Translations under genes and position numbers: made by a program
Notes under the pieces: model-generated
The model's database searches: none
The model's input: only the letters and a program-made list of their open reading frames with translations
What the model was told of the DNA's origin: nothing
Shown: positions 8,348 to 30,075 of the stretch, one piece after another
How positions within the stretch are numbered: the stretch's first letter is position 1
Layout of the letters: the number at the start of each line of letters is the position of its first letter
From: Naegleria gruberi
Lineage: Eukaryota
NCBI GenBank assembly: GCA_000004985.1
Contig: GG738917.1
Strand: one strand, 5' to 3'
DNA length: 64,000 nt

Positions 8348-10009
8348 ATGTCAAAACGAACACTGGAAACTCTTTATGAGGATGATGAGATTTCCATTGT
8401 TGCTCAACCTCCTCCGATCAAGGAAATTAAATTATCATCAAATATTAAAACCAAATTCCAAGAACTTCCCGACGAATTAATTAAATTAATATTAAATTTC
8501 ATACCGGACCAATATATTATTGCCTCCACTTGTAGAATATCCAAAGAATGGTATGAAATCTGTTCGAATGGTTCTCTCCAATTCCGACTCGATTATTCAA
8601 TAAGAAGGATCAAGAGATTGGATTTGGTAAAATTATGTGATTGTCCAATGATGAGAAATTTAGTTTATTTAAATTTGAATAATAATCAATTGCCACAACG
8701 ATATGTTGCAATGATTGGAGGGAGCGAATATTTGACTAATTTGGAAGAATTGGAATTGAACAAGTCAAAACTAAAGTTTAAAGCTGTGAGCTCCTTGGTG
8801 AAGAGCAAATTTGCAAAAACTATCAAAAAGATTTCATTTGATAGTTTTATAACAATGAATCCAGATTTGCTAATTAAATGTGTTGAGGATACTGTGGAAT
8901 CAACTGGAAATTTGTTTTGGTATTACTTTCTTGCTGGATATTTTGAGAATGTTGATTGCGCAGAATTGTCAGAGGAATATTTGAGGAAATCAGCAAATCT
9001 TGGTTATGTACAATCACAGATTGAGTATGGTCTTTTAAAAGTAAAAGATAATCAAGAAGAAGCTCTGATATGGTTAAAAAAGGCAGCAGAATTTGGAGAT
9101 TCCAATGCTCAGATATATCTTTCTGAATTATATGGAAATAGAGGAGAAAATGAGTTATCTTTCAAGTGGCTATTGACAGCTGCAGAACAAGGTAATACTA
9201 AAGCGTTCTATAATTTGGGGTTTTATTATAGAGAGGGCACTGGTGTGAAGATGGATTATGAGAAGGCACTCCACTGGTTTTTGAAAGCTGAGGAACATGG
9301 CGATCTCAATGCCATTTGTGTTATCGGTCACATGTATGGTATAGGACAGGGAGTAGAAGTGAATGAAGAAAAATCAACAGAGCTTACCTTAAGAGCTGCC
9401 ATGCGGGGAGACTCTTCCTCGCAGTACAATTTGGGTGTTAAATATTATCATGGCACTGGGACAGAAAGAGATTTGGAAAAGTCATTCAATTGGTTTCTCA
9501 ATGCTGCTAATGCTGACGAACCACTCGCTCAAAAAAGGGTAGGTTGCATGTTTTCTTCAGGGGAAGGTGTTGAGCAAGATATAGATCGAGCCATGTTTTG
9601 GCTTAAAGAGGCGTGTGATCAAGGAGATCATTCATGTACCATTCTCTTTGGAATTATGCACTACTTTGGATTACATGATTGTGAACTAGATTTGGAAAAA
9701 AGTAGGCAATTTTTGGGAAAATTAGGCACTCAATTCGATGACAGATTTCTCAGTAAGGTAAATTCAAGCTGTTGTTGCAATGAATGTTTTGTGGAAGATT
9801 TTAATGGATTTAACTATGAATGTGCTAATTTATCATGTGATTTTGATTTATGCCAACGATGTTACGAGAATGGAGCTAAATGCAACAAATGTGGAAACTC
9901 AAAATTTGCCAAACACCACGCTTTACAACTTTTTGTTCCTTTGCTAAAGCAGTTAAATGAAAAACCAAAGCACACAAAATTGGAAACATTGATCAAACTC
10001 CTTGAATAA
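8348..10009 (+). CDS. F-box protein with an LRR-like segment, Sel1/TPR-like repeats and a C-terminal ZZ-type zinc finger.
   Basis: F-box LPDELIKLILNFIPD...W. Repeated A-x-x-[WY]-[LF]-x-x-A-A-E-x-G motifs (Sel1-like). C-terminal Cys/His cluster CANLSCDFDLCQRCYENGAKCNKCG..HH (ZZ-like). Confidence 0.7.
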   Translation: MSKRTLETLYEDDEISIVAQPPPIKEIKLSSNIKTKFQELPDELIKLILNFIPDQYIIASTCRISKEWYEICSNGSLQFRLDYSIRRIKRLDLVKLCDCPMMRNLVYLNLNNNQLPQRYVAMIGGSEYLTNLEELELNKSKLKFKAVSSLVKSKFAKTIKKISFDSFITMNPDLLIKCVEDTVESTGNLFWYYFLAGYFENVDCAELSEEYLRKSANLGYVQSQIEYGLLKVKDNQEEALIWLKKAAEFGDSNAQIYLSELYGNRGENELSFKWLLTAAEQGNTKAFYNLGFYYREGTGVKMDYEKALHWFLKAEEHGDLNAICVIGHMYGIGQGVEVNEEKSTELTLRAAMRGDSSSQYNLGVKYYHGTGTERDLEKSFNWFLNAANADEPLAQKRVGCMFSSGEGVEQDIDRAMFWLKEACDQGDHSCTILFGIMHYFGLHDCELDLEKSRQFLGKLGTQFDDRFLSKVNSSCCCNECFVEDFNGFNYECANLSCDFDLCQRCYENGAKCNKCGNSKFAKHHALQLFVPLLKQLNEKPKHTKLETLIKLLE

Positions 10010-17098: not shown

Positions 17099-18850
17099 AT
17101 GCCAAAAACCTCATCTCGTCAATCAGGAAAATCCCACCCCAATGACTGCAACGCAGAGCTGAGTCCCATTGCTTGCAAGGCCTGCAAAAAAGCACATAAA
17201 AAAGTAAGTAATCCATTGCCATTATTATTATTGAAACATGCAACTTTTAAAGTGTGTAAGTATTCATCATCATCTCATCATCGGAATTAATATACTGAAT
17301 AATAGGATAGGAAAATGGGGAAATGCTCCCGATGTTCAAAGAAAAATCTTGAATGTCATTATGATACAGTGGATAGGAGAAGAAGATCTGAAAATCAACA
17401 AATTCAAACCGATGCAAATAGTAGTGGAAATGACAGTTCAAATCAATCACTTTCGGAATATTCCGATGATCATCAGCTTATCAAACACTCTGTGAATGGT
17501 AAAACCATTGAAGTTTACATTTACGTTACCAGTATGGGAATTCCTTGTTTTAAACCTGAAGAATATTACAAATTGTTACAATGCAATATGGAAGAATTAA
17601 ATAAGAATCGAAGAGATCAACTAGCTCTATTACTTTCTATCCAAACTATTTGTGAACAGATATTTGGATTCCCTGATTTGGCTGAACAAACTGCCAGAAA
17701 ATGTAAAAAGGTTGTCATGCATTTGTATGATGATTTTTCAAATCCATTTGTGGCTTGCACTTTTTTGAATATGGCCACATATTATTCAGCTGAAGGAGAT
17801 ATTGAGATGGCCAGAGGTTACATTGCTTTGGTGGAAAATTTTATTGATAGAATGAAACTGACCTCACAATTATTCGAATATGAACTAATTCCTAAATTTA
17901 ACATTGAATTTTGCATAACTTCAATGAAAATTGTTACTCCCATAACGTCTTTGGCATGCTGTGATTCCTATCCAATACCTGACGTTCCAATTCTCACGAA
18001 AATCTTTGGACTCCTCTCATCAATGCACGTTTTTCATCCAAGTTATGAAATTGAATTTTGGAATAATAATTTGAGTCCTACCATTGAGAATAGAATTAAT
18101 AATTTGGAGATTTTCTCAGTCCTTGCCGCCATATATGAGAACAAGTTGACAGATGTTTCAAAGAAATTAATGGAAGTCACCAAGGAAGTCTTCTTCAATG
18201 GATTGAATATTATACGACTGATATTGCATGCCAGTAAGATTGATAATTCTAAATTGTACGCAAATACTAGATTATTGGAATTCTATGCATTGAAAGTGAG
18301 CAAATTATCAGAGAATAATCTCTTCATTTACATGACTCCATATGTCATGTCATTTGTTCTGTCATCCATTAAGGTAAACTTTGAAGTTTGTAAAATGATT
18401 GATCGAGGAGAAAGAGTAAATTTACAGACCACACTCGTATTGAATAATGAAATGTTTGAAAATTCGACTGAAGTTGTGGATTACTATTCAGTGCTGAATA
18501 GAGATTTGGAAACACTCAAACAACTTTCAAAGAGATACAGATATATCACCACTATTTATAATGAAGTGAATACATTCTTGAATAATAGAGCTAACATGTG
18601 TCAATCGAACATTCAGTTGGATGGGTTGACTTCCTCTCCTGGAAGTTTGAGTTCACTATTTGATCCACCTTCTAACATTTACTCAGAGATGAGGAATTTC
18701 TTATCAACCTTTGGAAAATCCAGGAATTTACTCAAAACAACAGATCAAGAAAAACCAATTTGTGACAGAATTACTACTGAGGAAGAGTTTTGTAATTATT
18801 TTGGATTTGAACCAGCAATGGATGATCAATTTCCACCAAACAATAGATAA
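17099..18850 (+). CDS. Protein with an N-terminal Cys-rich Zn2Cys6-like (fungal-type binuclear cluster-like) motif and a large C-terminal domain of unknown function. Two exons: 17099-17203, 17306-18850.
   Basis: Exon 1 ends ...CKACKKAHKK with a GTAAGT donor at 17204. Acceptor aatag at 17305. Exon 2 continues in frame DRKMGKCSRCSKKNLECHY (C-x2-C...C-x2-C-x6-C-H). The exact Cys spacing is non-canonical. Confidence 0.55.
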
Positions 18851-18955
18851 ACATCATAATATTAATTGTGTTTTTCTATCAATTTAATTGAATTTCCAGA
18901 AGTACTAGAATTACATTTGAGTGAAGCAACAATAAAATAAAAAGTAATTTCTGAA

Positions 18956-19287
18956 TGCGTCGACCGGGAATTGAACTTCCTTTTTAGGAATATTATATTT
19001 AATATTTAAATAGTTTACAATATTGAATAATGAAACAACGTGTAAATGTGTTTAAGTAGGGTACCCGTGAGTCGATTCACCATATTTGGAAGGTACTATT
19101 CAACAACAACAACAACAATAAATGTATTTAATATTAATTATTTGATACCGGGAGTCGCTTTTCCTTTTTGGGAATGTTGTATGTGAGTTATCAACTGGTC
19201 TACGCATTTAAATTTTTTTAAAAAATAAAAAAAAATGAAATTGGGTAACGGGAGACGGTTTACTATATATGGAACATTCAAACATAC
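18956..19287 (-). repeat. Segment holding the tRNA-Gly 3' end (T-loop/acceptor 3'/discriminator, 18956-18976, minus) followed by an array of four degenerate ~30-35 bp units resembling tRNA 3' ends or B-boxes (about 18957, 19059, 19145, 19244).
   Basis: The minus strand of 18956-18976 reads GTTCAATTCCCGGTCGACGCA, i.e. tRNA positions 53-73. The units share CCGGGA..(10)..TTCC..TTTTTGGGAA on the plus strand. Their reverse complements resemble GGAA..TTCAATTCCCGGT. Confidence 0.55.
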
Positions 19288-19345
19288 AATTGAACCCGGG
19301 TCACGGCGATGGCAACGCCGTATTCTACCACTAAACCATCGACGC
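19288..19345 (-). tRNA. Truncated tRNA-Gly(GCC), positions 1-60 only (A-box, anticodon arm, T-stem 5' half and T-loop). The 3' T-stem and acceptor are missing at this site.
   Basis: Minus strand: GCGTCGA TG GTTTAGTGGTAGAATAC GGCGTTGCCATCGCC GTGAC CCGGG TTCAATT, then unrelated sequence. The anticodon loop TTGCCAT gives anticodon GCC. The matching 3' end lies 311 bp downstream (18956-18976) with an 8-nt overlap GTTCAATT. Confidence 0.6.
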
Positions 19346-19443
19346 TTCTTATTAAGGTTCTAAGGCTCTATCATTTCACACAACCAGAAACCTGATACTC
19401 CAAAAGTTTATTACAGCTGATCGTTCAATGACTCATTACCACC

Positions 19444-20632
19444 TTATTGCAAACTCTTTCCACCAACACATTGGAATCCTAACTTGACACATCTAGGACA
19501 AGGTTTTTCATCAGTACAGAAAACGTGAGCTTTTCTACATTGATCACAGGGTGACTTAACTTGATTTCTTCTCTTTTTCTTCGTTACTTCTCCCTTATCA
19601 TTGCTACCGTTCATTATAACCGTGACGTGTTTTCCTGTAATCAAGTTTGTAAACTTGATTGGCATTCCGTTTGGAATAAAGTTGAATAAATCACAATCTC
19701 TTTTAAGAAATTTCTTATCTTCCTTATTCTCAATCATTGCAGGATTCAAATTGTATATCATGGCTTCATAAAGCTTTGGGGAAATGATATCTCTCTTAGA
19801 AACCAAAAGTGGATGGGAATCAACTGTCGCCAAGACCTCTCCTTCAATAATTGGGAATCTGATTTCACTCAAGAAATAGTCCAAATATTGCAATCTATTT
19901 TCCTTATCGTGCTCAATCCATCTCATCAAGGACTTGAATAAATTTCCTTCACTACCTATTAATTTGAGTTCCTCTCCAGCAAGCATGACCTTCAAGTCTT
20001 CAATTGATAATTTAACAAAATGTTCACTTTCACAAACAGCATCAAAATTAGCAGAAATCTTAGTAAGAAGAGTTTTCTTTAAAGAGTTGATTTCCTTAAA
20101 TTCTTCCAGATATTGTGAGCAATTTTCCAAAAGAAGGAATGAATCACCAACAGCAGCACTTCTCATAATTTTAAGAGCCCTACCCTCAATTTCTTGCATT
20201 CCATAGGTATGAGCAAAAGTGTACAGATCCATAAATTTATCCACTGCATAATCCTTTGTGGAACCAAAATAGACAACCTTTAAGAAAATTTCCAATCCTA
20301 AATCGGTCACCTGATCCAATACAAGCTCCATGCCAATCTTGAATTCTGGAATAAAAAGAAGTTCCTTCAGTTTTGTACTCCATTTTCCGACCTATGATGA
20401 ATCATCATGATGTTCGGATCATCACACAATTTAAATATTTGATTTTACAATAACACACACATACCATGGCTCTAAGAGCTGGAAATTTCTTTCCATTCTG
20501 ACTGATCAATACACAATCAGAAACTTCTTCATCCAAATACAAGGATGAAATCATGGACATGGTTTTTTCTGTACATTCAATGTAGTTGTTGGAACGGGTT
20601 ATGGAATTACCTAATGTGGAAATTGAATTCAA
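19444..20632 (-). CDS. BTB/BACK-domain protein with a C-terminal Zn2Cys6-like cysteine cluster. Two exons: 20465-20632 and 19444-20391.
   Basis: Exon 1 encodes ...DCVLISQNGKKFPALRAM (BTB N-terminus) with a GTATGT donor. Acceptor catag at 20392. Exon 2 in frame: VGKWSTKLKELLF...MELVLDQ... The C-terminus reads CDQCRKAHVFCTDEKPCPRCVKLGFQC, which is C-x2-C-x6-C-x5-C-x2-C-x6-C. Confidence 0.6.
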
Positions 20633-20889
20633 TTTTGAAATTGAATATAAGTGGATTGTTTCAATAAATTTTCAAAATTGAAATTGAGATTATTTACAAT
20701 ATTTTATTGAATATTGATGAAATTAAATAAATAGAATATTTCACATAGTTTCTTGTTAGAAAAGATAGTCAATTGAACTTAAGATTTATTACATATCAAC
20801 CAGACACTCAATCACCATCAAAGAAAACAAAGAAGAATAACGTTATTGATAGTGATACTGAAGATTTCGATTGTAATATTAAAGATATT

Positions 20890-21200
20890 GATAATTGGGT
20901 ATAGGGAAACGGAATTTCCTAATGGGGAAAGTCACACAATAAATTAAATTATTTATTCATTAATGATGATGTTCACAAACTTTGAATTAACACATTATGT
21001 ACATGATGAAACAATTCAAACTTTAAACATTGAACTTTAACCATCGGGTAACGGATTTTAATACATGTACTAGTATGTTGACAATTTGATAATTTGTCGA
21101 CGCACATAAATTTAAATAAACAAAATTAACAAGATTTTAAACAAAATCCTACATAGAGTTGGAGAACGGGAAATGAAATTCCCAAATTGAAATTTAGAAA
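20890..21200 (-). repeat. Second array of degenerate tRNA-3'-end/B-box-like ~30-35 bp units (about 20896, 21043, 21154), adjacent to the second tRNA-Gly fragment.
   Basis: gggtatagggaaacggaatttcctaatggggaaag, cgggtaacggattttaatacatg and ggagaacgggaaatgaaattcccaaattg resemble the units at 18957-19277 (for example gggtaacgggagacggtttactatatatggaac). Confidence 0.45.
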
Positions 21201-21238
21201 CAACTATTCATTTCACAATAATTCATACTATCAAAATG

Positions 21239-21296
21239 AATTGAACCCGGGTCACGGCGATGGCAACGCCGTATTCTACCACTAAACCATCGACGC
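21239..21296 (-). tRNA. Second copy of the truncated tRNA-Gly(GCC) positions 1-60. It is identical to 19288-19345 and shares 13 bp of 5' flank (CCTTAATAAGAAG on the minus strand).
   Basis: Plus-strand aattgaacccgggtcacggcgatggcaacgccgtattctaccactaaaccatcgacgc is identical to the copy at 19288-19345. Both are truncated after TTCAATT. The flanks diverge beyond the shared cttcttattaagg. Confidence 0.6.
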
Positions 21297-22037
21297 TTCT
21301 TATTAAGGTAATAAGGCACCATATTTTAATAAAGAAGAACCCCAAAAGTGTTTTTATGCTTTAATAACAATTTGAATGATTCATGAATACCTGCGGTGGG
21401 AGGTAACATTGGCGTGGCTACCTCAACAACTAAAAAAAGCGCCATAATCACCTACAAGTTGGAGGTACCCTCAGATTGACATGGCTCTTAAATTTGTGAT
21501 AATGGTTTCGAGTAATTCTTACTCCAATAGTTCACATCATCCAAAAACTAATACTAGTAATTTTTAATACCATCATTTCCTTATTGAAACATCATCCTAT
21601 CATTCACCAACAAATTGAAGTGCATTCTTCATTCTTTTCTTACTCAATGGCCAACAAAACGATGGCTAATTGTTCAGTTTCCAACAACACACAATTGAAT
21701 GACCATAAAGAAACCTCAAGCTAATACTTTCCTTTTTCAATTCATATTCCCATCATCATACAAAATGATGAAATATCACATGAAATATTCAGTGAAAGAA
21801 GTAATCGTTAGACACAAATATTCAATTTAGAAAGGAGATGATTCACATCAAAAGAAATTACCATTCCTCATATGAATGCATTTGGAAATAATGTAAACCA
21901 CAACGGTTTTAAATCAAGCCACAACAGCAACTGATGGAAGACATGTCCACTCAATTCTTCTAGACATACAAAAAGTTCATCCACATAACAACAACACCTG
22001 ACATCCACCAACTGACACATTTCAATAATACACAAGG

Positions 22038-26568: not shown

Positions 26569-29500
26569 TTAATTGGTTGTCCTGCTGTTACAAGTGGACA
26601 GGATCTTCAATAATTCAGATCTAATAATGGAGAAGGAAGGTCTTAAATCTGTTTGTTGATTCCAACATTGCTTTGCGAGTATAAAGTATTCCAAAATAGC
26701 CACAGGATTCATATTCGAAACTGGATACATATTTAACCATTCTTGTAATTCCTCAATAGTTTCGAAAGGAACAAGAGGTCTATAACCATTCAGAACCATT
26801 CCCAAAACATTAACAGGTGCCAAACTAGCATTTGCTCCAACTTTAGACGAAACTGTATAAGGAGTCAACTCAAAGAAAAGTTCCCACATGATTATTCCAA
26901 AAGAATAAACATCCATCTTGGTCGCCCTACTAATTTTCGACTCGTGTGAAATCTCCAAACTGTCATTTGTCAATTCTTGTTCATTTCTCATTAATTCTGG
27001 ACTCGCATAAAATAAAGTTCCAATTCCACGTGTCATGGTATTTTGTGTTAAATTTCCAACACTTCTACTCAATCCAAAATCACAAATTTTACATCTCAAA
27101 TCTTCGTCTAAAAGGACATTTCCTGGTTTGAGATCTCTGTGAATAATGGCAGGTTGTAGAGAATGCAAATAATCCATTCCAGCAGCAATGTCCTGGAGGA
27201 GGAGAATCTTTTGTTGGAATGTGAGATTAGTCTTGCCATTTCTGCAATTGAAAATTAATCTTTCCAATGAACCATTTTCCAAAAATTCAGTGACCATGTA
27301 TCTTGTTTCATCGGTGATACACACTCCGTAGAATTTCAAAATATTGGCATGTTGTAAACTTGCTAAAATTGAAGCTTCCTTCTCAAATTCCAATTGTAGC
27401 TCTTCATCATCTGCCAAATTTTTCAATGACTTGACAGCAACACTTGTTTCCTTAAATAAAATTGCCTTATAGACAACTCCTTGTCCACCTTCTGATATCT
27501 TTTTTACAATTTCCAAATCCTCAATGTTAATAATTATTGCTTCCAATCGAGATTTCATTTTCAATTCCATTTCATTTTGGCTTAATAGGGGTGAAGTGAG
27601 CGAGGTGGTATAGTAGGTCGAAAGAGGATCCTCTGCATTGCCAAATATCACTCTCTTATCAAGAATCTTTCTCGCAATGCTCTTCTCTGCTCTTTCCTTT
27701 CTCGATAACTTGTTGAGTCTTGCACGAATTTTCATTACAATGTAAATGACAAGAGTGGAAGAGATGATTCCCAAAATGAAGAATAGGATACTCGAAGGAA
27801 TGGCTATTCCTAAAATTAATCCCAACGATACTTTCTCTTTTGGAATGCACGAGTATCCAATCGCTGGAATACTTGTAAGAACAAGCTCTGTATCTGTTGG
27901 ACAATTAACAACTTGAATGGTTAGTGAGTTTGATTCCTTGAGTGGATATTTAGCCCATCCAATTGTTATATTAAACATGGTGGATAATCCCTTCTTGATG
28001 GATGCTTCAACAGAAAGCATTGTAATATTGACACCATCAAATGTTGGATTCACAATAAAAGTATAATCTGGATTAGTGACATTTACGTACATATTATCAA
28101 CATTGACTGGTATTACCATCTCTGAAGAAGTGGCCATTGCACTAATAAAAACTTGTTGTCCTGGATATAAATAGTAAAACTGTCCATAATTTGAGCTATT
28201 AAGACTCAATGAATTTTCCAATAAAAAATAATCATCTCCAAATATGTCAGCTCTATTTCCAATAAAACGATTATTTGTTAATGAAGTTTCAGCTTTTTGA
28301 AATTGATAAATGGCTCCTCCAGCTCTCTGAGCTCTATTATTCCTAAATGTACAATCTCTAATCGATGCCAATGCCTCTTTCCAATAAAAGAGAGCTCCTC
28401 CATTATAAGCATAATTGGATTCAAAGGTTGCATTCTTAATAGATAATGAATCAACACTTAAAGAGGATAATATAAAGATTGCTCCTCCATTTCCCATATA
28501 AATCTTGTCAGTTGGCAGAGAATTACTATAGGTAACTCTATTTCCATAAAATAGAGAACCTGTCAATGATAAATCAGTTGCACCTAAGATGAAGATTGCT
28601 CCACCAGATTTCTTTGCTGTGTTATTCCTAAATATGGTATTGGAAATTTCTAGACTCTGTGTAGTTGAAATGAAAATAGCTCCTCCCAAATTTGGAGAAT
28701 AATTATCTTGAAATAGAGAATTTTCAATTAAGGTAACGACCAATTTGGTTTCTTTTGCCATTGAATCAATATAAATAGGAGAACCTAATCCTCTGGTGAA
28801 ATTCGATTCCTTAATATAAAATTTCAAGATATCCGAAAGGTAAAACGTCGAAGCTCTTTCTCCCTTATTAGAATCAAATTTGCTATTCATCACCCTTAAT
28901 GTATCCACTACAAATAATGAGACAGGTGCTTGATAAGTTATTAGAAACTCAGTATCATAACTCAAAGTACTAAAAGAAGAACTAGACGAAATTTCACAAC
29001 TTTCAAACTCTACATTGGTGCTAATTCTAATAGAAAACCAAATACCTCCATTCAGCATTCTACTTTTCCAAACTCTGACCAATCCAGTATTTGCAATCAC
29101 AAAAACTGGATCACTCTTCATTGCCACTGAAAATGTGCAATTTTCAATTAAAATATTATCAGCAAAAGAAATTGAAAAAAAAGCCAAAGTTTCCTCAAAT
29201 ATTGAATTATATAATGATAATAAAGATGATTGTTCTGTGTTGATGATAAAAGATTGAGTTGATTGAATATTCGAAATGTAGAGCTTATCTTGTTTCGTTC
29301 CAATTAGAATATTCATTGTAAAGTAGAGAATTTTGGAATTATCAATTCTTGATAATTGAATAGAATTTGTTGTGAATTTAAATATATAAACATTTGAATA
29401 TTCCAAGATAAATAAATTTAGAGAAGTGAAATCTGAAATTAAATTTACAATTTTCACATTCGAAAGTAAAAAACCTTTCGCATAGGAATCATAAATTCTC

Positions 29501-30075
29501 ACATTTTCAATTCCAATATTTGCAAAATATAAAACATCAACATCTTTTCTATCCACATTCAATAAATTCAAATTATCTACTTGACATTTAACTGTCACTT
29601 GTTTAGTTTGGTTCGGTTGACCAGAAATTTTAATCCAATAAAACAAGCCAGTGAGTGGTGAACGTAGGATTGTGGGTGGTGACGAACAATCGGCTAATAA
29701 ATCATTCATCAAAATTATTTCGACTGCAACTATTCGATTCACAAAATAGAGAAGGAAATTTATATTATTCGAAAGGTCGATATCTAGTCGGGTGAATACT
29801 TGATGAAGATTTACGCAAGGAGTGTCTAGAGTACAGTTTAGACTTGAAGATTCGAATGCAGTGGCCGAATTCACATAGTATGTGAAATTTAAATAGGGAG
29901 CTTTCGAATAGGATTGAAAAAACTGTTCTGCTTGTTGTGCCTTGTTTTCTAATGGAAAGAAAAGAAAGAAAGTTATTAGAATAATGATGATGAAAAAGGT
30001 GTGATGGGTTTCTAATAGTTTCATTTTTTTGACGAAAGCTCTTTGAACTTCACTAATAATTTTTTTAATAGCCAT
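26569..30075 (-). CDS. Receptor-like TKL protein kinase: signal/anchor, large ectodomain with polymorphic-membrane-protein-type (GGA[IL] / FxxN) parallel beta-helix repeats, a single TM, and a cytoplasmic kinase domain.
   Basis: Ectodomain repeats NLGGAIFIS...FRNNTAKKSGGAIFIL...GNGGAIFIL...FESNYAYNGGALFYW...FRNNRAQRAGGAIYQF. TM LGLILGIAIPSSILFFILGIISSTLVIYIVM. Kinase motifs ISEGGQGVVYKA, VAVK, HRDLKPGNVLLD, DFGLSR, GTLFYASPE. Confidence 0.8.
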   Translation of the reverse strand: MAIKKIISEVQRAFVKKMKLLETHHTFFIIIILITFFLFFPLENKAQQAEQFFQSYSKAPYLNFTYYVNSATAFESSSLNCTLDTPCVNLHQVFTRLDIDLSNNINFLLYFVNRIVAVEIILMNDLLADCSSPPTILRSPLTGLFYWIKISGQPNQTKQVTVKCQVDNLNLLNVDRKDVDVLYFANIGIENVRIYDSYAKGFLLSNVKIVNLISDFTSLNLFILEYSNVYIFKFTTNSIQLSRIDNSKILYFTMNILIGTKQDKLYISNIQSTQSFIINTEQSSLLSLYNSIFEETLAFFSISFADNILIENCTFSVAMKSDPVFVIANTGLVRVWKSRMLNGGIWFSIRISTNVEFESCEISSSSSFSTLSYDTEFLITYQAPVSLFVVDTLRVMNSKFDSNKGERASTFYLSDILKFYIKESNFTRGLGSPIYIDSMAKETKLVVTLIENSLFQDNYSPNLGGAIFISTTQSLEISNTIFRNNTAKKSGGAIFILGATDLSLTGSLFYGNRVTYSNSLPTDKIYMGNGGAIFILSSLSVDSLSIKNATFESNYAYNGGALFYWKEALASIRDCTFRNNRAQRAGGAIYQFQKAETSLTNNRFIGNRADIFGDDYFLLENSLSLNSSNYGQFYYLYPGQQVFISAMATSSEMVIPVNVDNMYVNVTNPDYTFIVNPTFDGVNITMLSVEASIKKGLSTMFNITIGWAKYPLKESNSLTIQVVNCPTDTELVLTSIPAIGYSCIPKEKVSLGLILGIAIPSSILFFILGIISSTLVIYIVMKIRARLNKLSRKERAEKSIARKILDKRVIFGNAEDPLSTYYTTSLTSPLLSQNEMELKMKSRLEAIIINIEDLEIVKKISEGGQGVVYKAILFKETSVAVKSLKNLADDEELQLEFEKEASILASLQHANILKFYGVCITDETRYMVTEFLENGSLERLIFNCRNGKTNLTFQQKILLLQDIAAGMDYLHSLQPAIIHRDLKPGNVLLDEDLRCKICDFGLSRSVGNLTQNTMTRGIGTLFYASPELMRNEQELTNDSLEISHESKISRATKMDVYSFGIIMWELFFELTPYTVSSKVGANASLAPVNVLGMVLNGYRPLVPFETIEELQEWLNMYPVSNMNPVAILEYFILAKQCWNQQTDLRPSFSIIRSELLKILSTCNSRTTN

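What the first reader, a model, noticed from the sequence alone, without database searches (positions are those of the whole stretch)
19444..20632. BTB/BACK protein ending in a perfect Zn2Cys6 binuclear-cluster spacing
The last 30 residues read C-x2-C-x6-C-x5-C-x2-C-x6-C (CDQCRKAHVFCTDEKPCPRCVKLGFQC), the exact spacing of Gal4-type Zn2Cys6 DNA-binding clusters. Here it is at the C-terminus of a BTB/BACK (cullin-3 adaptor-like) protein rather than at the N-terminus of a transcription factor. The neighbouring gene 17099-18850 also begins with a looser Zn-cluster-like motif. Either this is a BTB transcription factor with a swapped domain order, or the Cys cluster serves as a substrate-recognition or zinc-binding module for a CUL3 adaptor.
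Basis: partly seen in the sequence, partly recalled or inferred. Interest (0 to 1): 0.5.

Follow-up and report, generated by a model that had tools for sequence, protein, structure and literature searches.

The report
BTB-BACK protein with borrowed zinc cluster
A Naegleria gruberi gene really does encode a BTB-BACK (ubiquitin-ligase-adaptor-type) protein ending in a Gal4-type zinc cluster, apparently made by swapping the usual C-terminal domain for a DNA-binding cassette copied from a transcription-factor-like gene; the combination is new but its function is only inferred.

Summary
On the minus strand, exon 1 (20560-20465), a 73-nt GT..AG intron and exon 2 (20391-19444) encode 347 aa. This is identical to the deposited Naegleria gruberi 'predicted protein' XP_002670287.1, so the organism is a heterolobosean, not an amoebozoan. 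Pfam matches BTB, BACK and Zn_clus, all above their curated cut-offs. The C-x2-C-x6-C-x5-C-x2-C-x6-C pattern occurs once in six-frame translation of the 64-kb window.

The protein is a chimera. Residues 1-284 are homologous (36-38%) to a heterolobosean BTB-BACK-ALK/LTK-glycine-rich-domain family, through that domain's first strand. Residues 287-341 are 65% identical to the zinc cluster of N. gruberi's own Zn_clus-ankyrin protein, which has orthologues in Willaertia and N. lovaniensis. The zinc cluster therefore sits in the slot where CUL3 adaptors carry their substrate-binding domain.

The BTB-BACK part models confidently and resembles KBTBD2, KLHL11 and SPOP. The tail models as a Zn2Cys6 fold, closest to S. 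pombe Pho7, and keeps Pho7's minor-groove contact residues.

Most likely it is a BTB-dimerised, DNA-targeted scaffold, a functional analogue of animal BTB-zinc-finger proteins. Expression, zinc binding, DNA binding and CUL3 binding are all untested. A 97%-identical metagenomic allele carries a 2-nt frameshift. I found no other protein with this architecture and no paper describing it. Interest is moderate.

The parts
20465..20560 (-). Exon 1, residues 1-32 (ATG at 20560-20558), encoding the start of the BTB domain
   Evidence: Sequence reading and splicing script. The spliced product is identical to deposited XP_002670287.1.
20392..20464 (-). Intron, 73 nt, GTATGT...TAG, phase 0
   Evidence: The intron is present, with a 13-nt deletion, in the 97%-identical contig L001, and shortened in the 87%-identical contig L002.
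19444..20391 (-). Exon 2, residues 33-347 plus stop TAA (19446-19444). A single open frame runs from BTB through BACK to the zinc cluster.
   Evidence: ORF list, translation, tblastn back to the window.
20185..20539 (-). BTB/POZ domain, residues 8-101 (the span includes the intron)
   Evidence: Pfam PF00651 at 23.2 bits against a cut-off of 20.5. AlphaFold2 pLDDT is 87-98. Foldseek matches KBTBD2, KLHL11 and SPOP. I46-P47-E48 aligns with L-S-E of KBTBD2.
19825..20091 (-). BACK domain, residues 133-221
   Evidence: Pfam PF07707 at 64 bits. PDB sequence hits to KLHL3, KBTBD2 and gigaxonin.
19636..19674 (-). Remnant of the first strand of the parental ALK/LTK glycine-rich domain, residues 272-284 (FIPNGMPIKFTNLITG)
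   Evidence: It aligns with FIPRGVAITFTTLGASG of P0154 and KFTTLGCSG / KFTSLGQTG of P0002 and P0006, which continue into PF12810.
19465..19629 (-). Cassette homologous to the Zn_clus-ankyrin family, residues 287-341: pre-cluster stretch, basic arm KKKRRNQVK, and zinc cluster
   Evidence: BLASTP gives 65% identity to N. gruberi XP_002674749 residues 135-187, 61% to Willaertia KAL9642142 and 57% to N. lovaniensis XP_044551154.
19468..19548 (-). Six-cysteine Zn2Cys6 motif, C314-C340
   Evidence: Regex scan. Pfam Zn_clus at 29.5 bits. Best solved relative is the Pho7 DNA-binding domain, E 1.6e-4. AlphaFold2 pLDDT is 78-87 with helices after Cys1 and Cys4. All 24 Foldseek PDB hits are Zn2Cys6 domains.
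19447..19464 (-). Six-residue C-terminal tail GGKSLQ. It replaces the conserved E-A-x-K-K basic stretch of the donor family, and no linker or coiled coil follows the cluster.
   Evidence: Alignments A3 and A4.

Best explanation
This is a real, in-frame chimeric gene of Naegleria gruberi. A BTB-BACK scaffold came from a heterolobosean family that normally ends in an ALK/LTK-type glycine-rich domain. That domain was lost after its first strand and replaced by a ~55-residue cassette (basic arm plus Zn2Cys6 cluster) copied from the Zn_clus-ankyrin regulator family. These points are shown by homology. The rest is inferred. The BTB domain probably makes the protein a homodimer, supplying the dimerisation that Gal4-type factors get from a coiled coil, which is absent here. 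The basic arm (KKKRR) and zinc cluster probably take it to the nucleus and to DNA sites similar to those of the parental regulator. The BTB-BACK part then probably acts there, most likely by recruiting cullin-3 to ubiquitylate DNA-bound proteins, or simply by occupying and repressing the sites. In effect it would be a heterolobosean analogue of animal BTB-zinc-finger factors, with the DNA-binding module in the adaptor's substrate-receptor position. The confidence given (0.4) is for this whole mechanism; the chimeric architecture alone I hold at about 0.9.
For: Architecture and frame: one ORF from BTB to the stop, all three Pfam domains above cut-off, and a product identical to the deposited model. 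Chimeric origin: residues 1-284 are 36-38% identical to BTB-BACK-ALK_LTK_GRD proteins of N. gruberi, Willaertia and metagenomic relatives, through the FTxLGxxG strand. Residues 287-341 are 65/61/57% identical to the clusters of Zn_clus-ANK proteins, against 29-50% for the other zinc clusters aligned. BTB-BACK competence: pLDDT is above 90 over most of residues 1-260. The nearest solved structures are all CUL3 adaptors, several of them solved bound to CUL3 (KBTBD2, KLHL11, SPOP, vaccinia A55). I-P-E sits five residues before strand beta-4 and aligns with L-S-E of KBTBD2. Zinc-cluster competence: all six Cys are present and 26 of 69 alignment columns are invariant with the donors. The tail models as a two-helix Zn2Cys6 fold, and its 24 PDB matches are all Zn2Cys6 DNA-binding domains. 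Pho7 residues K282, K283, R284 and Q287, which contact DNA backbone and minor groove (PMC6265462), align with identical K304, K305, R306 and Q309. Selection: pN/pS is 0.34 over 116 BTB codons against an 87%-identical relative. Coding sequence differs from L001 by about 0.8%, against about 2.6% in the 3' flank.
Against: There is no expression evidence. The 97%-identical allele in contig L001 carries a 2-nt insertion that frameshifts after about codon 141. All three nucleotide differences in the tail between the two alleles are non-synonymous (V>M, G>C). The tail differs from the donors at five core positions that are invariant across three genera. Two of these are helix-1 positions corresponding to Pho7 K300 (base contact) and K301 (phosphate contact); here they are V and F. 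The tail has also lost the donors' acidic residue after Cys6, which aligns with Pho7 D320 (an Arg306-Asp320 salt bridge stabilises the Pho7 fold), and the following basic stretch. In the full-length AlphaFold model the tail has pLDDT below 50. The BTB Pfam score (23 bits) is far below those of the paralogues (45-60 bits). The phi-x-E assignment depends on which alignment is used. No orthologue with this architecture was seen outside close N. gruberi relatives.
Confidence: 0.4

Rival explanations
1. It is a young chimera that is drifting or decaying. The fusion happened and is annotated, but it has little or no selected function and is dispensable.
For: There is a 2-nt frameshifting insertion in the only other full-length allele, L001. 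pN/pS against that allele is 0.54 on just 8 changes, and the tail changes are all non-synonymous. The tail has substitutions at donor-invariant positions and has lost the post-cluster basic segment. The BTB HMM score is weak. The N-terminus is 32 residues shorter than in an 87%-identical relative, and the upstream sequence has been replaced. No architecture-sharing orthologue was found.
Against: The open frame is intact in NEG-M over 347 codons, with all six Cys and 26 donor-invariant columns retained despite 26-35% divergence from the donors. The BTB part shows purifying selection (pN/pS 0.34). Coding sequence is more conserved than the flanking and intron sequence. The L001 insertion comes from one metagenome assembly and could be an error or a single null allele.
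Confidence: 0.25
2. It is a conventional CUL3 substrate adaptor in which the zinc cluster is a zinc-stabilised protein-binding (substrate-recognition) knob, not a DNA-binding domain.
For: The cluster sits exactly where the Kelch, MATH or glycine-rich recognition domains sit in BTB-BACK adaptors. The helix-1 residues corresponding to Pho7 base and phosphate contacts (K300, K301) are V and F here. The C-terminal minor-groove arm used by Pho7 is missing.
Against: Every solved relative of the module by sequence or fold is a DNA-binding domain. The N-terminal basic arm, which has identical residues at four Pho7 DNA-contact positions, is retained. The donor family keeps this arm invariant across three genera.
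Confidence: 0.15
3. It is a gene-model artefact: the zinc-cluster codons are not part of the mature coding sequence (UTR, alternative splicing, or a separate gene).
For: No transcript data could be consulted. The deposited model is a computational prediction labelled 'predicted protein'.
Against: There is no stop codon between BACK and the cluster, and no canonical GTAAGT/GTATGT..AG intron of workable length in between. The homology to the two parental families abuts within 2 residues in the same frame. The same continuous frame exists downstream of the frameshift in L001. An AATAAA lies 32 nt after the stop codon.
Confidence: 0.07

Closest known systems
Animal BTB-zinc-finger (POK/ZBTB) transcription factors, e.g. 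PLZF, BCL6 (established knowledge, not tested here)
   Same: An N-terminal BTB dimerisation/effector domain and a C-terminal zinc-dependent DNA-binding module in one polypeptide. Some members also recruit CUL3.
   Different: Their DNA-binding module is tandem C2H2 fingers, not a Zn2Cys6 binuclear cluster, and they lack a BACK domain. There is no sequence relationship beyond the BTB fold, so the resemblance is convergence, not membership.
BTB-BACK CUL3 substrate adaptors (KLHL/KBTBD families, SPOP, gigaxonin)
   Same: These are the best structural matches for residues 1-260 (KBTBD2, KLHL11, KBTBD4, SPOP, gigaxonin, vaccinia A55). The BTB-then-BACK order is shared, and there is a candidate phi-x-E (I-P-E).
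   Different: There is no Kelch or MATH domain. The recognition slot holds a 27-residue zinc cluster on a roughly 90-residue low-confidence linker. CUL3 binding is untested.
Heterolobosean BTB-BACK-ALK_LTK_GRD family (N. gruberi XP_002674389, Willaertia magna KAL9655061, metagenomic P0002/P0154)
   Same: 36-38% identity over residues 1-284, including the FIPxGxxIxFTxLG entry into the glycine-rich domain. This is the parental scaffold.
   Different: The glycine-rich domain (PF12810) is absent apart from its first strand. The BTB is more divergent (23 against 45-60 bits).
Heterolobosean Zn_clus-ankyrin proteins (N. gruberi XP_002674749, N. lovaniensis XP_044551154, W. magna KAL9642142)
   Same: 65/61/57% identity over the basic arm and cluster, with the shared signature KKRRNQxKSxCxxCRxAHxxCxDxKPCxRCVKLGxxCV. 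This is the donor of the cassette.
   Different: In the donors the cluster lies internally (residues ~160-250 of 609-716) and is followed by E-A-x-K-K and C-terminal ankyrin repeats. Here the cluster is terminal and neither feature is present.
Fungal Gal4-type Zn2Cys6 factors; closest solved is S. pombe Pho7 (PDB 6E33/6O19)
   Same: Cysteine spacing, two-helix fold, and identical residues at Pho7 DNA-contact positions K282, K283, R284 and Q287.
   Different: The cluster is at the C-terminus. There is no linker/coiled-coil dimerisation element, no fungal middle-homology domain and no Pho7-type C-terminal minor-groove arm. Helix 1 reads A-H-V-F instead of the K/N-rich base-contacting residues. 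The organism is not a fungus.
Budding-yeast CBF3 core (Cep3 Zn2Cys6 with Skp1 and the F-box protein Ctf13; PMC6077249 listed, Cep3 among the hits)
   Same: A Zn2Cys6 DNA-binding module physically coupled to a BTB/POZ-fold, cullin-ligase-type component.
   Different: The components are separate polypeptides, of the SCF/Skp1 type rather than CUL3/BTB-BACK, with a kinetochore function. This is an analogy only.

Membership tests
Zn2Cys6 binuclear cluster domain (Pfam PF00172) | Six cysteines spaced C-x2-C-x6-C-x5-12-C-x2-C-x6-8-C | tested here: met
   C314-x2-C317-x6-C324-x5-C330-x2-C333-x6-C340, the only such site in six frames of the window.
Zn2Cys6 binuclear cluster domain (Pfam PF00172) | Profile match above the curated threshold | tested here: met
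   29.5 bits against a cut-off of 21, E 8e-7. Pho7 DNA-binding domain E 1.6e-4 in the PDB sequence search.
Zn2Cys6 binuclear cluster domain (Pfam PF00172) | Two short helices, each starting after the first Cys of a C-x2-C pair | tested here: met
   AlphaFold2 of the tail with a 16-sequence alignment gives helices at tail residues 30-34 and 46-51 (after Cys29 and Cys45), pLDDT 78-87. All 24 Foldseek PDB matches are Zn2Cys6 domains, rmsd 1.1-2.5 A for the best. The fold is not confident in the full-length model.
Zn2Cys6 binuclear cluster domain (Pfam PF00172) | Binds two Zn(II) ions | not testable with these tools
   Needs metal analysis of recombinant protein.
Gal4-type zinc-cluster transcription factor | Sequence-specific DNA binding (CGG-type half-sites) | not testable with these tools
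   Indirect evidence only. Four Pho7 DNA-contact residues of the N-terminal arm are identical, but the positions corresponding to Pho7 N299/K300/K301 are H/V/F.
Gal4-type zinc-cluster transcription factor | Linker and coiled-coil dimerisation element C-terminal to the cluster | tested here: not met
   The protein ends 7 residues after Cys6.
Gal4-type zinc-cluster transcription factor | N-terminal position of the cluster, often with a fungal middle-homology (Fungal_trans) domain | tested here: not met
   The cluster is at residues 314-340 of 347, and Pfam shows no Fungal_trans hit at E up to 1.
BTB-BACK CUL3 substrate adaptor | BTB domain followed by a BACK domain | tested here: met
   PF00651 at 23.2 bits and PF07707 at 64 bits. 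pLDDT is above 90 over most of residues 1-260. Foldseek top hits are KBTBD2, KLHL11, KBTBD4, SPOP and gigaxonin.
BTB-BACK CUL3 substrate adaptor | phi-x-E motif in the alpha3-beta4 loop that contacts CUL3 (established knowledge of KLHL/SPOP-CUL3 complexes) | tested here: inconclusive
   HMMER aligns I46-P47-E48-F-K with L-S-E-S-K of KBTBD2, five residues before modelled strand 53-56. MAFFT against the paralogues instead places F49-K50-I51 opposite their F-M-E.
BTB-BACK CUL3 substrate adaptor | C-terminal protein-recognition domain (Kelch, MATH and similar) | tested here: not met
   Only Zn_clus is found after BACK.
BTB-BACK CUL3 substrate adaptor | Physical binding to cullin-3 | not testable with these tools
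   Needs co-IP, a pull-down or a complex prediction with N. gruberi CUL3.
Animal BTB-zinc-finger (POK) factors | C-terminal tandem C2H2 zinc fingers | tested here: not met
   No zf-C2H2 hit; the zinc module is Zn2Cys6. The resemblance is functional analogy only.
Heterolobosean BTB-BACK-ALK_LTK_GRD family | Full-length homology including the glycine-rich domain PF12810 | tested here: not met
   Homology stops at residue ~284 after the first strand. There is no PF12810 hit, whereas the paralogues score 26.7-46.6 bits.
Heterolobosean Zn_clus-ankyrin family | Zinc cluster plus C-terminal ankyrin repeats | tested here: not met
   Only the cluster cassette is shared (65% identity). There are no Ank hits here, whereas the donors have strong Ank hits.

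The most novel reading that the evidence does not exclude
A DNA-guided cullin-3 ligase adaptor: the Zn2Cys6 cluster occupies the substrate-receptor position of a BTB-BACK adaptor. It directs CRL3 ubiquitylation (or BTB-mediated repression) to promoters recognised by the parental Zn_clus-ankyrin regulator. This would be an independent invention, in Discoba, of the BTB-plus-zinc-DNA-binding logic known from animal BTB-ZF factors, with BTB dimerisation replacing the Gal4 coiled coil.
Probability: 0.2. Interest if true: 0.6.

Novelty: new variant of a known kind. Interest (0 to 1): 0.4.

Why it matters
If functional, this is a natural example of a Gal4-type DNA-binding module grafted onto a cullin-3-adaptor scaffold. 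It lies outside fungi and outside the lineage (animals) where BTB-plus-DNA-binding-zinc-finger proteins are known. It would show that the 'dimerising BTB + zinc DNA reader' design arose more than once. It would also show that zinc-cluster cassettes are mobile between gene families in Heterolobosea. Both parents are identifiable, so it offers a clean case for studying how domain replacement creates a new regulator or an antagonist of the parental factor. If it is only a drifting young chimera, it is an ordinary product of domain shuffling in a gene-rich protist.

Tried and rejected
1. The word-indexed protein search with the full protein returned nothing, and with the 99%-identical fragment P0001 or the tail alignment it returned only P0001 itself or one 109-aa JGI protein. 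It missed the identical deposited protein and the 65%-identical donor, so its negatives say nothing about absence of orthologues.
2. Exact-sequence locus look-ups for the deposited protein and for the donor XP_002674749 found no record. I therefore could not compare donor and recipient at the DNA level for dS, intron positions or retroposition signs.
3. A JGI metagenome scan with residues 201-347 found no relative.
4. Contigs of the more distant relatives (L002/L003 at 87%, L004 at ~79%) end inside exon 2, so whether they carry the zinc-cluster tail is unknown.
5. I first thought the CUL3-contacting phi-x-E motif was lost (F-K-I in the MAFFT alignment). I withdrew this after HMMER aligned I-P-E with L-S-E of KBTBD2.
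6. I considered that the neighbouring Zn_clus gene donated the cluster and rejected it. Its cluster (CKACKKAHKKCDRKMGKCSRCSKKNLEC) differs at far more positions than the Zn_clus-ANK family's does.
7. I tried to date the fusion from identities. Tail versus donors is 67-74% in the 39-column core, against 79-82% among the donors. The pre-cluster stretch is only marginally closer to the N. gruberi donor (6/15 against 3-4/15). The result is inconclusive.
8. Literature searches for Naegleria plus Zn2Cys6 or binuclear, BTB plus Zn2Cys6, and the gene/protein accessions found nothing describing this protein or architecture. The 2008 comparative survey of protist transcription factors by Iyer et al. is not held.
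9. The Rfam gathering scan of 18800-21500 found nothing.
Full report
**What is at the site**

The finding lies on the minus strand. The sequence shows an ATG at 20560 and 96 nt of coding sequence to 20465. A 73-nt intron follows, with canonical ends (GTATGT...TAG, 20464-20392, phase 0). A single open frame then runs from 20391 to the TAA at 19446-19444. The upper coordinate in the finding (20632) is only the mechanical TTG start of the ORF list.

The spliced product is 347 aa. It is identical, residue for residue, to the deposited 'predicted protein' XP_002670287.1 / EFC37543.1 / UniProt D2W028 (NAEGRDRAFT_74708) of Naegleria gruberi. The window is therefore N. gruberi, a heterolobosean, not an amoebozoan or a fungus. 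Window GC of 31-36% and the other genes sampled (beclin/Apg6, F-box/Sel1, a kinase, Vps39-like) fit a free-living protist.

**Check of the observation**

The string CDQCRKAHVFCTDEKPCPRCVKLGFQC occupies residues 314-340 (window 19548-19468). It has exactly the stated spacing. A six-frame scan for the general Zn2Cys6 pattern finds only this site in 64 kb. Pfam-A reports three domains, all above their curated cut-offs:

| Domain | Residues | Bits | Cut-off |
|---|---|---|---|
| BTB | 8-101 | 23.2 | 20.5 |
| BACK | 133-221 | 64 | 20.9 |
| Zn_clus | 313-341 | 29.5 (E 8e-7) | 21 |

**Origin: a chimera of two identifiable families**

An exhaustive HMMER scan of 1.84 billion cluster representatives splits the protein into two parts.

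- **Residues 3-282** match proteins of 320-600 aa at 29-39% identity. These include N. gruberi XP_002674389, Willaertia magna KAL9655061 and metagenomic relatives. Pfam shows they are BTB-BACK-ALK_LTK_GRD proteins, carrying the PF12810 glycine-rich domain.
- **The homology runs into the first strand of that domain.** FIPNGMPIKFTNLITG here aligns with FIPRGVAITFTTLGASG and KFTTLGCSG in the relatives. It then stops at about residue 284.
- **Residues 287-341 match a different family.** They are 65% identical to residues 135-187 of N. gruberi XP_002674749, a 609-aa protein with an internal Zn_clus and C-terminal ankyrin repeats. They are 61% identical to the Willaertia orthologue and 57% to the N. 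lovaniensis orthologue.
- **The shared signature** covers the basic arm and the whole cluster: KKRRNQxKSxCxxCRxAHxxCxDxKPCxRCVKLGxxCV. It gives 26 invariant columns.

The two homologies abut within two residues in one reading frame, at a G-(K)-H that resembles both parents (TGH in the glycine-rich side, GHV in the donor). The simplest reading is domain replacement: the glycine-rich domain of a BTB-BACK gene was replaced by a zinc-cluster cassette from a Zn_clus-ANK gene.

The adjacent Zn_clus gene is not the donor; its cluster sequence is much less similar. The age of the event is unresolved. In the 39-column core the tail is 67-74% identical to the donors, which are 79-82% identical to each other. 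The non-conserved pre-cluster stretch is only slightly closer to the N. gruberi copy. I could not obtain the donor's DNA.

**Is each part likely to be competent?**

*BTB-BACK part.* With a 44-sequence alignment, AlphaFold2 models residues 1-260 at pLDDT mostly above 90. Foldseek against the PDB returns CUL3 adaptors throughout the top ranks. These include KBTBD2-CUL3 complexes, KLHL11 alone and with CUL3, KBTBD4, gigaxonin, SPOP and vaccinia A55-CUL3. From established work on KLHL/SPOP-CUL3 complexes, a phi-x-E motif in the alpha3-beta4 loop contacts CUL3. HMMER aligns I46-P47-E48-F-K here with L-S-E-S-K of KBTBD2, five residues before the modelled beta-4 strand. A MAFFT alignment with the paralogues places the motif differently. 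I score this feature as inconclusive.

*Zinc-cluster tail.* In the full-length model the tail has pLDDT below 50. Modelled alone with 16 aligned zinc clusters, it reaches pLDDT 78-87 over the cluster, with helices directly after Cys1 and Cys4. All 24 Foldseek PDB matches are Zn2Cys6 DNA-binding domains: Pho7, Ppr1, Gal4, Put3, Hap1, Leu3, AlcR and Cep3. The best have rmsd 1.1-2.5 A.

By sequence the nearest solved relative is S. pombe Pho7 (E 1.6e-4). In the Pho7-DNA crystal structure, K282, K283, R284 and Q287 of the N-terminal arm contact phosphates and the minor groove, and N299 and K300 read bases (PMC6265462).

- The four arm residues align with identical K304, K305, R306 and Q309 here.
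- The positions aligned with N299, K300 and K301 are H, V and F.
- The residue aligned with D320, which stabilises the Pho7 fold through a salt bridge, is G.
- Pho7's C-terminal minor-groove arm has no counterpart, because the protein ends GGKSLQ seven residues after Cys6.

Relative to the donors, the tail has five substitutions at core positions invariant across three genera (A>V, A>P, E>D, T>V, A>F). It has also lost the E-A-x-K-K stretch. DNA binding is therefore plausible but not assured, and specificity may have shifted.

**Population and selection evidence**

Three metagenome contigs carry close relatives.

- **L001** (97% identical) spans the whole gene, including the tail, and shares the intron. 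It has a 2-nt AA insertion that shifts the frame after about codon 141. Apart from that, the coding sequence differs at 8 positions, with pN/pS 0.54, too few changes to interpret. All three changes in the tail are non-synonymous. Coding sequence differs by about 0.8%, against about 2.6% in the 3' flank.
- **L002/L003** (87% identical) cover only exon 1 and 330 nt of exon 2. There pN/pS is 0.34 over 116 codons, so the BTB part has been under purifying selection. That orthologue also starts 32 residues further upstream. In NEG-M the corresponding upstream sequence is unrelated.
- **L004** (~79%) is also N-terminal only.

Whether more distant relatives carry the zinc-cluster tail is unknown. No protein in the top 150 hits matched both the BTB-BACK part and the tail. 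A JGI metagenome scan found nothing. The word-indexed searches were uninformative, because they missed even the identical deposited protein.

**Most likely mechanism**

*Shown:* one frame encodes BTB-BACK plus a Zn2Cys6 cassette, and the cassette sits where the parental family, and CUL3 adaptors generally, carry the recognition domain.

*Inferred:*
- BTB makes a homodimer, which would supply the dimerisation that Gal4-type factors obtain from a coiled coil that is absent here.
- The KKKRR arm and cluster take the dimer to the nucleus and to DNA sites related to those of the Zn_clus-ANK regulator.
- The BTB-BACK part then acts there, by recruiting cullin-3 or by occupying the sites.

This is the logic of animal BTB-zinc-finger factors (established knowledge), reached with a different zinc module and with a BACK domain. 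I give this composite mechanism about 0.4. The chimeric architecture itself I hold at about 0.9.

The rivals are:
- a drifting or dispensable young chimera (0.25; frameshifted allele, changes at donor-invariant positions, weak BTB score);
- a CUL3 adaptor in which the cluster binds protein rather than DNA (0.15);
- a gene-model artefact (0.07; argued against by the continuous frame, the abutting homologies and the lack of a plausible intron).

**Comparison with what is known**

Zinc-cluster factors are not confined to fungi. Acanthamoeba is reported to have 22 and Dictyostelium 3 (PMC4053784). The nearest non-heterolobosean relatives of this cluster come from cryptophytes (Hanusia, Rhodomonas) and Boletales fungi. 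A zinc cluster in Naegleria is therefore not surprising in itself.

What I could not find anywhere is the BTB-BACK-Zn_clus combination. It was absent from the sequence searches and from the literature searches. The protein is not a member of the Gal4-type factor class, because the coiled coil, the N-terminal position and the middle-homology domain are all not met. It is not a BTB-ZF protein, because it has no C2H2 fingers. It is not a complete member of either parental family. It is best filed as a new domain combination of known modules: a new variant of a known kind.

**The neighbouring gene mentioned in the finding**

The deposited model XP_002670244.1 (511 aa) begins at MGKCSRC (17315) and contains only the second half of a cluster (Zn_clus 11.4 bits). 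The alternative model is:

- upstream exon 17099-17203, which ends ...CKACKKAHKK;
- the triplet TGT at 17253-17255, flanked by AG on one side and GTAAGT on the other, with introns of 49 and 50 nt;
- a third exon from 17306.

Joining these gives C-x2-C-x6-C-x6-C-x2-C-x6-C and a Zn_clus score of 32.9 bits. Skipping the TGT gives 18.8 bits, below the cut-off. The 'looser' motif is thus a full zinc cluster whose third cysteine appears to be encoded by a 3-nt microexon. This needs transcript confirmation.

**Verdict**

Function is untested. Interest is moderate at 0.4.

Noticed in passing
window 17099-18850 (+); microexon 17253-17255: The neighbouring gene's deposited model (XP_002670244.1, 511 aa) starts inside a Zn2Cys6 cluster. 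Adding an upstream exon (17099-17203) and a 3-nt microexon TGT, flanked by AG| and |GTAAGT with introns of 49 and 50 nt, restores the third cysteine. The Pfam Zn_clus score rises from 11.4 bits (deposited) or 18.8 bits (microexon skipped) to 32.9 bits. Mis-annotated or microexon-dependent Gal4-type domains have been described in fungi (PMC10141177 and PMC11121469, titles and abstracts seen).
   Followed up: partly
window 18957-19345 (-), insert 18977-19287; second copy 21239-21327 (-): A tRNA-Gly(GCC) gene just downstream of the BTB gene is split in its T-loop by a 311-nt insertion with an 8-bp duplication (GTTCAATT). The 97%-identical metagenome contig L001 has the tRNA intact, so this is an insertion polymorphism. 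A second partial copy (5' flank plus the first 59 nt, 93% identical) upstream of the BTB gene breaks at the same T-loop position. ARAGORN calls it tRNA-Gly, but Rfam scores it 21.2 bits, below the 29-bit threshold. This may reflect an element that targets this T-loop site; the insert has no other copy in the window.
   Followed up: partly
proteins P0004, P0006, P0002, P0154, P0155 (relatives, not in the window): The parental family combines BTB-BACK with the ALK/LTK glycine-rich domain (PF12810, 26.7-46.6 bits) in N. gruberi, Willaertia magna and unnamed metagenomic organisms. UniProt's name for the N. gruberi member, 'receptor protein-tyrosine kinase', looks like a misnomer driven by that domain. 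A glycine-rich ALK-type domain in the substrate slot of a CUL3-adaptor-like protein in protists may deserve its own look.
   Followed up: partly
L001 positions ~420 of the CDS (aligned to window ~20061): The only other full-length allele (ENA metagenome ERZ929261, contig k127_342078) has a 2-nt AA insertion (ACTAAGA > ACTAAAAGA) that frameshifts the gene after about codon 141. This could be a real null allele or an assembly error.
   Followed up: no
window 20561-20700 (-) versus L002 2150-2272: In an 87%-identical relative the orthologue begins 32 codons further upstream (MLSLSSSSSSGGGAVQKTAIDEEAYIECTEKTL...). In NEG-M the codons YIECTEKT are still in frame upstream of the ATG, but the sequence before them is unrelated and has no in-frame ATG. 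NEG-M therefore uses a new, downstream start.
   Followed up: partly
window 26569-30075 (-): An ORF of 1168 aa combines Chlamydia-PMP-type repeats with a C-terminal protein kinase domain. Window 8348-10009 (+) encodes an F-box plus Sel1-repeat protein. I saw both only in the Pfam survey used to identify the organism.
   Followed up: no
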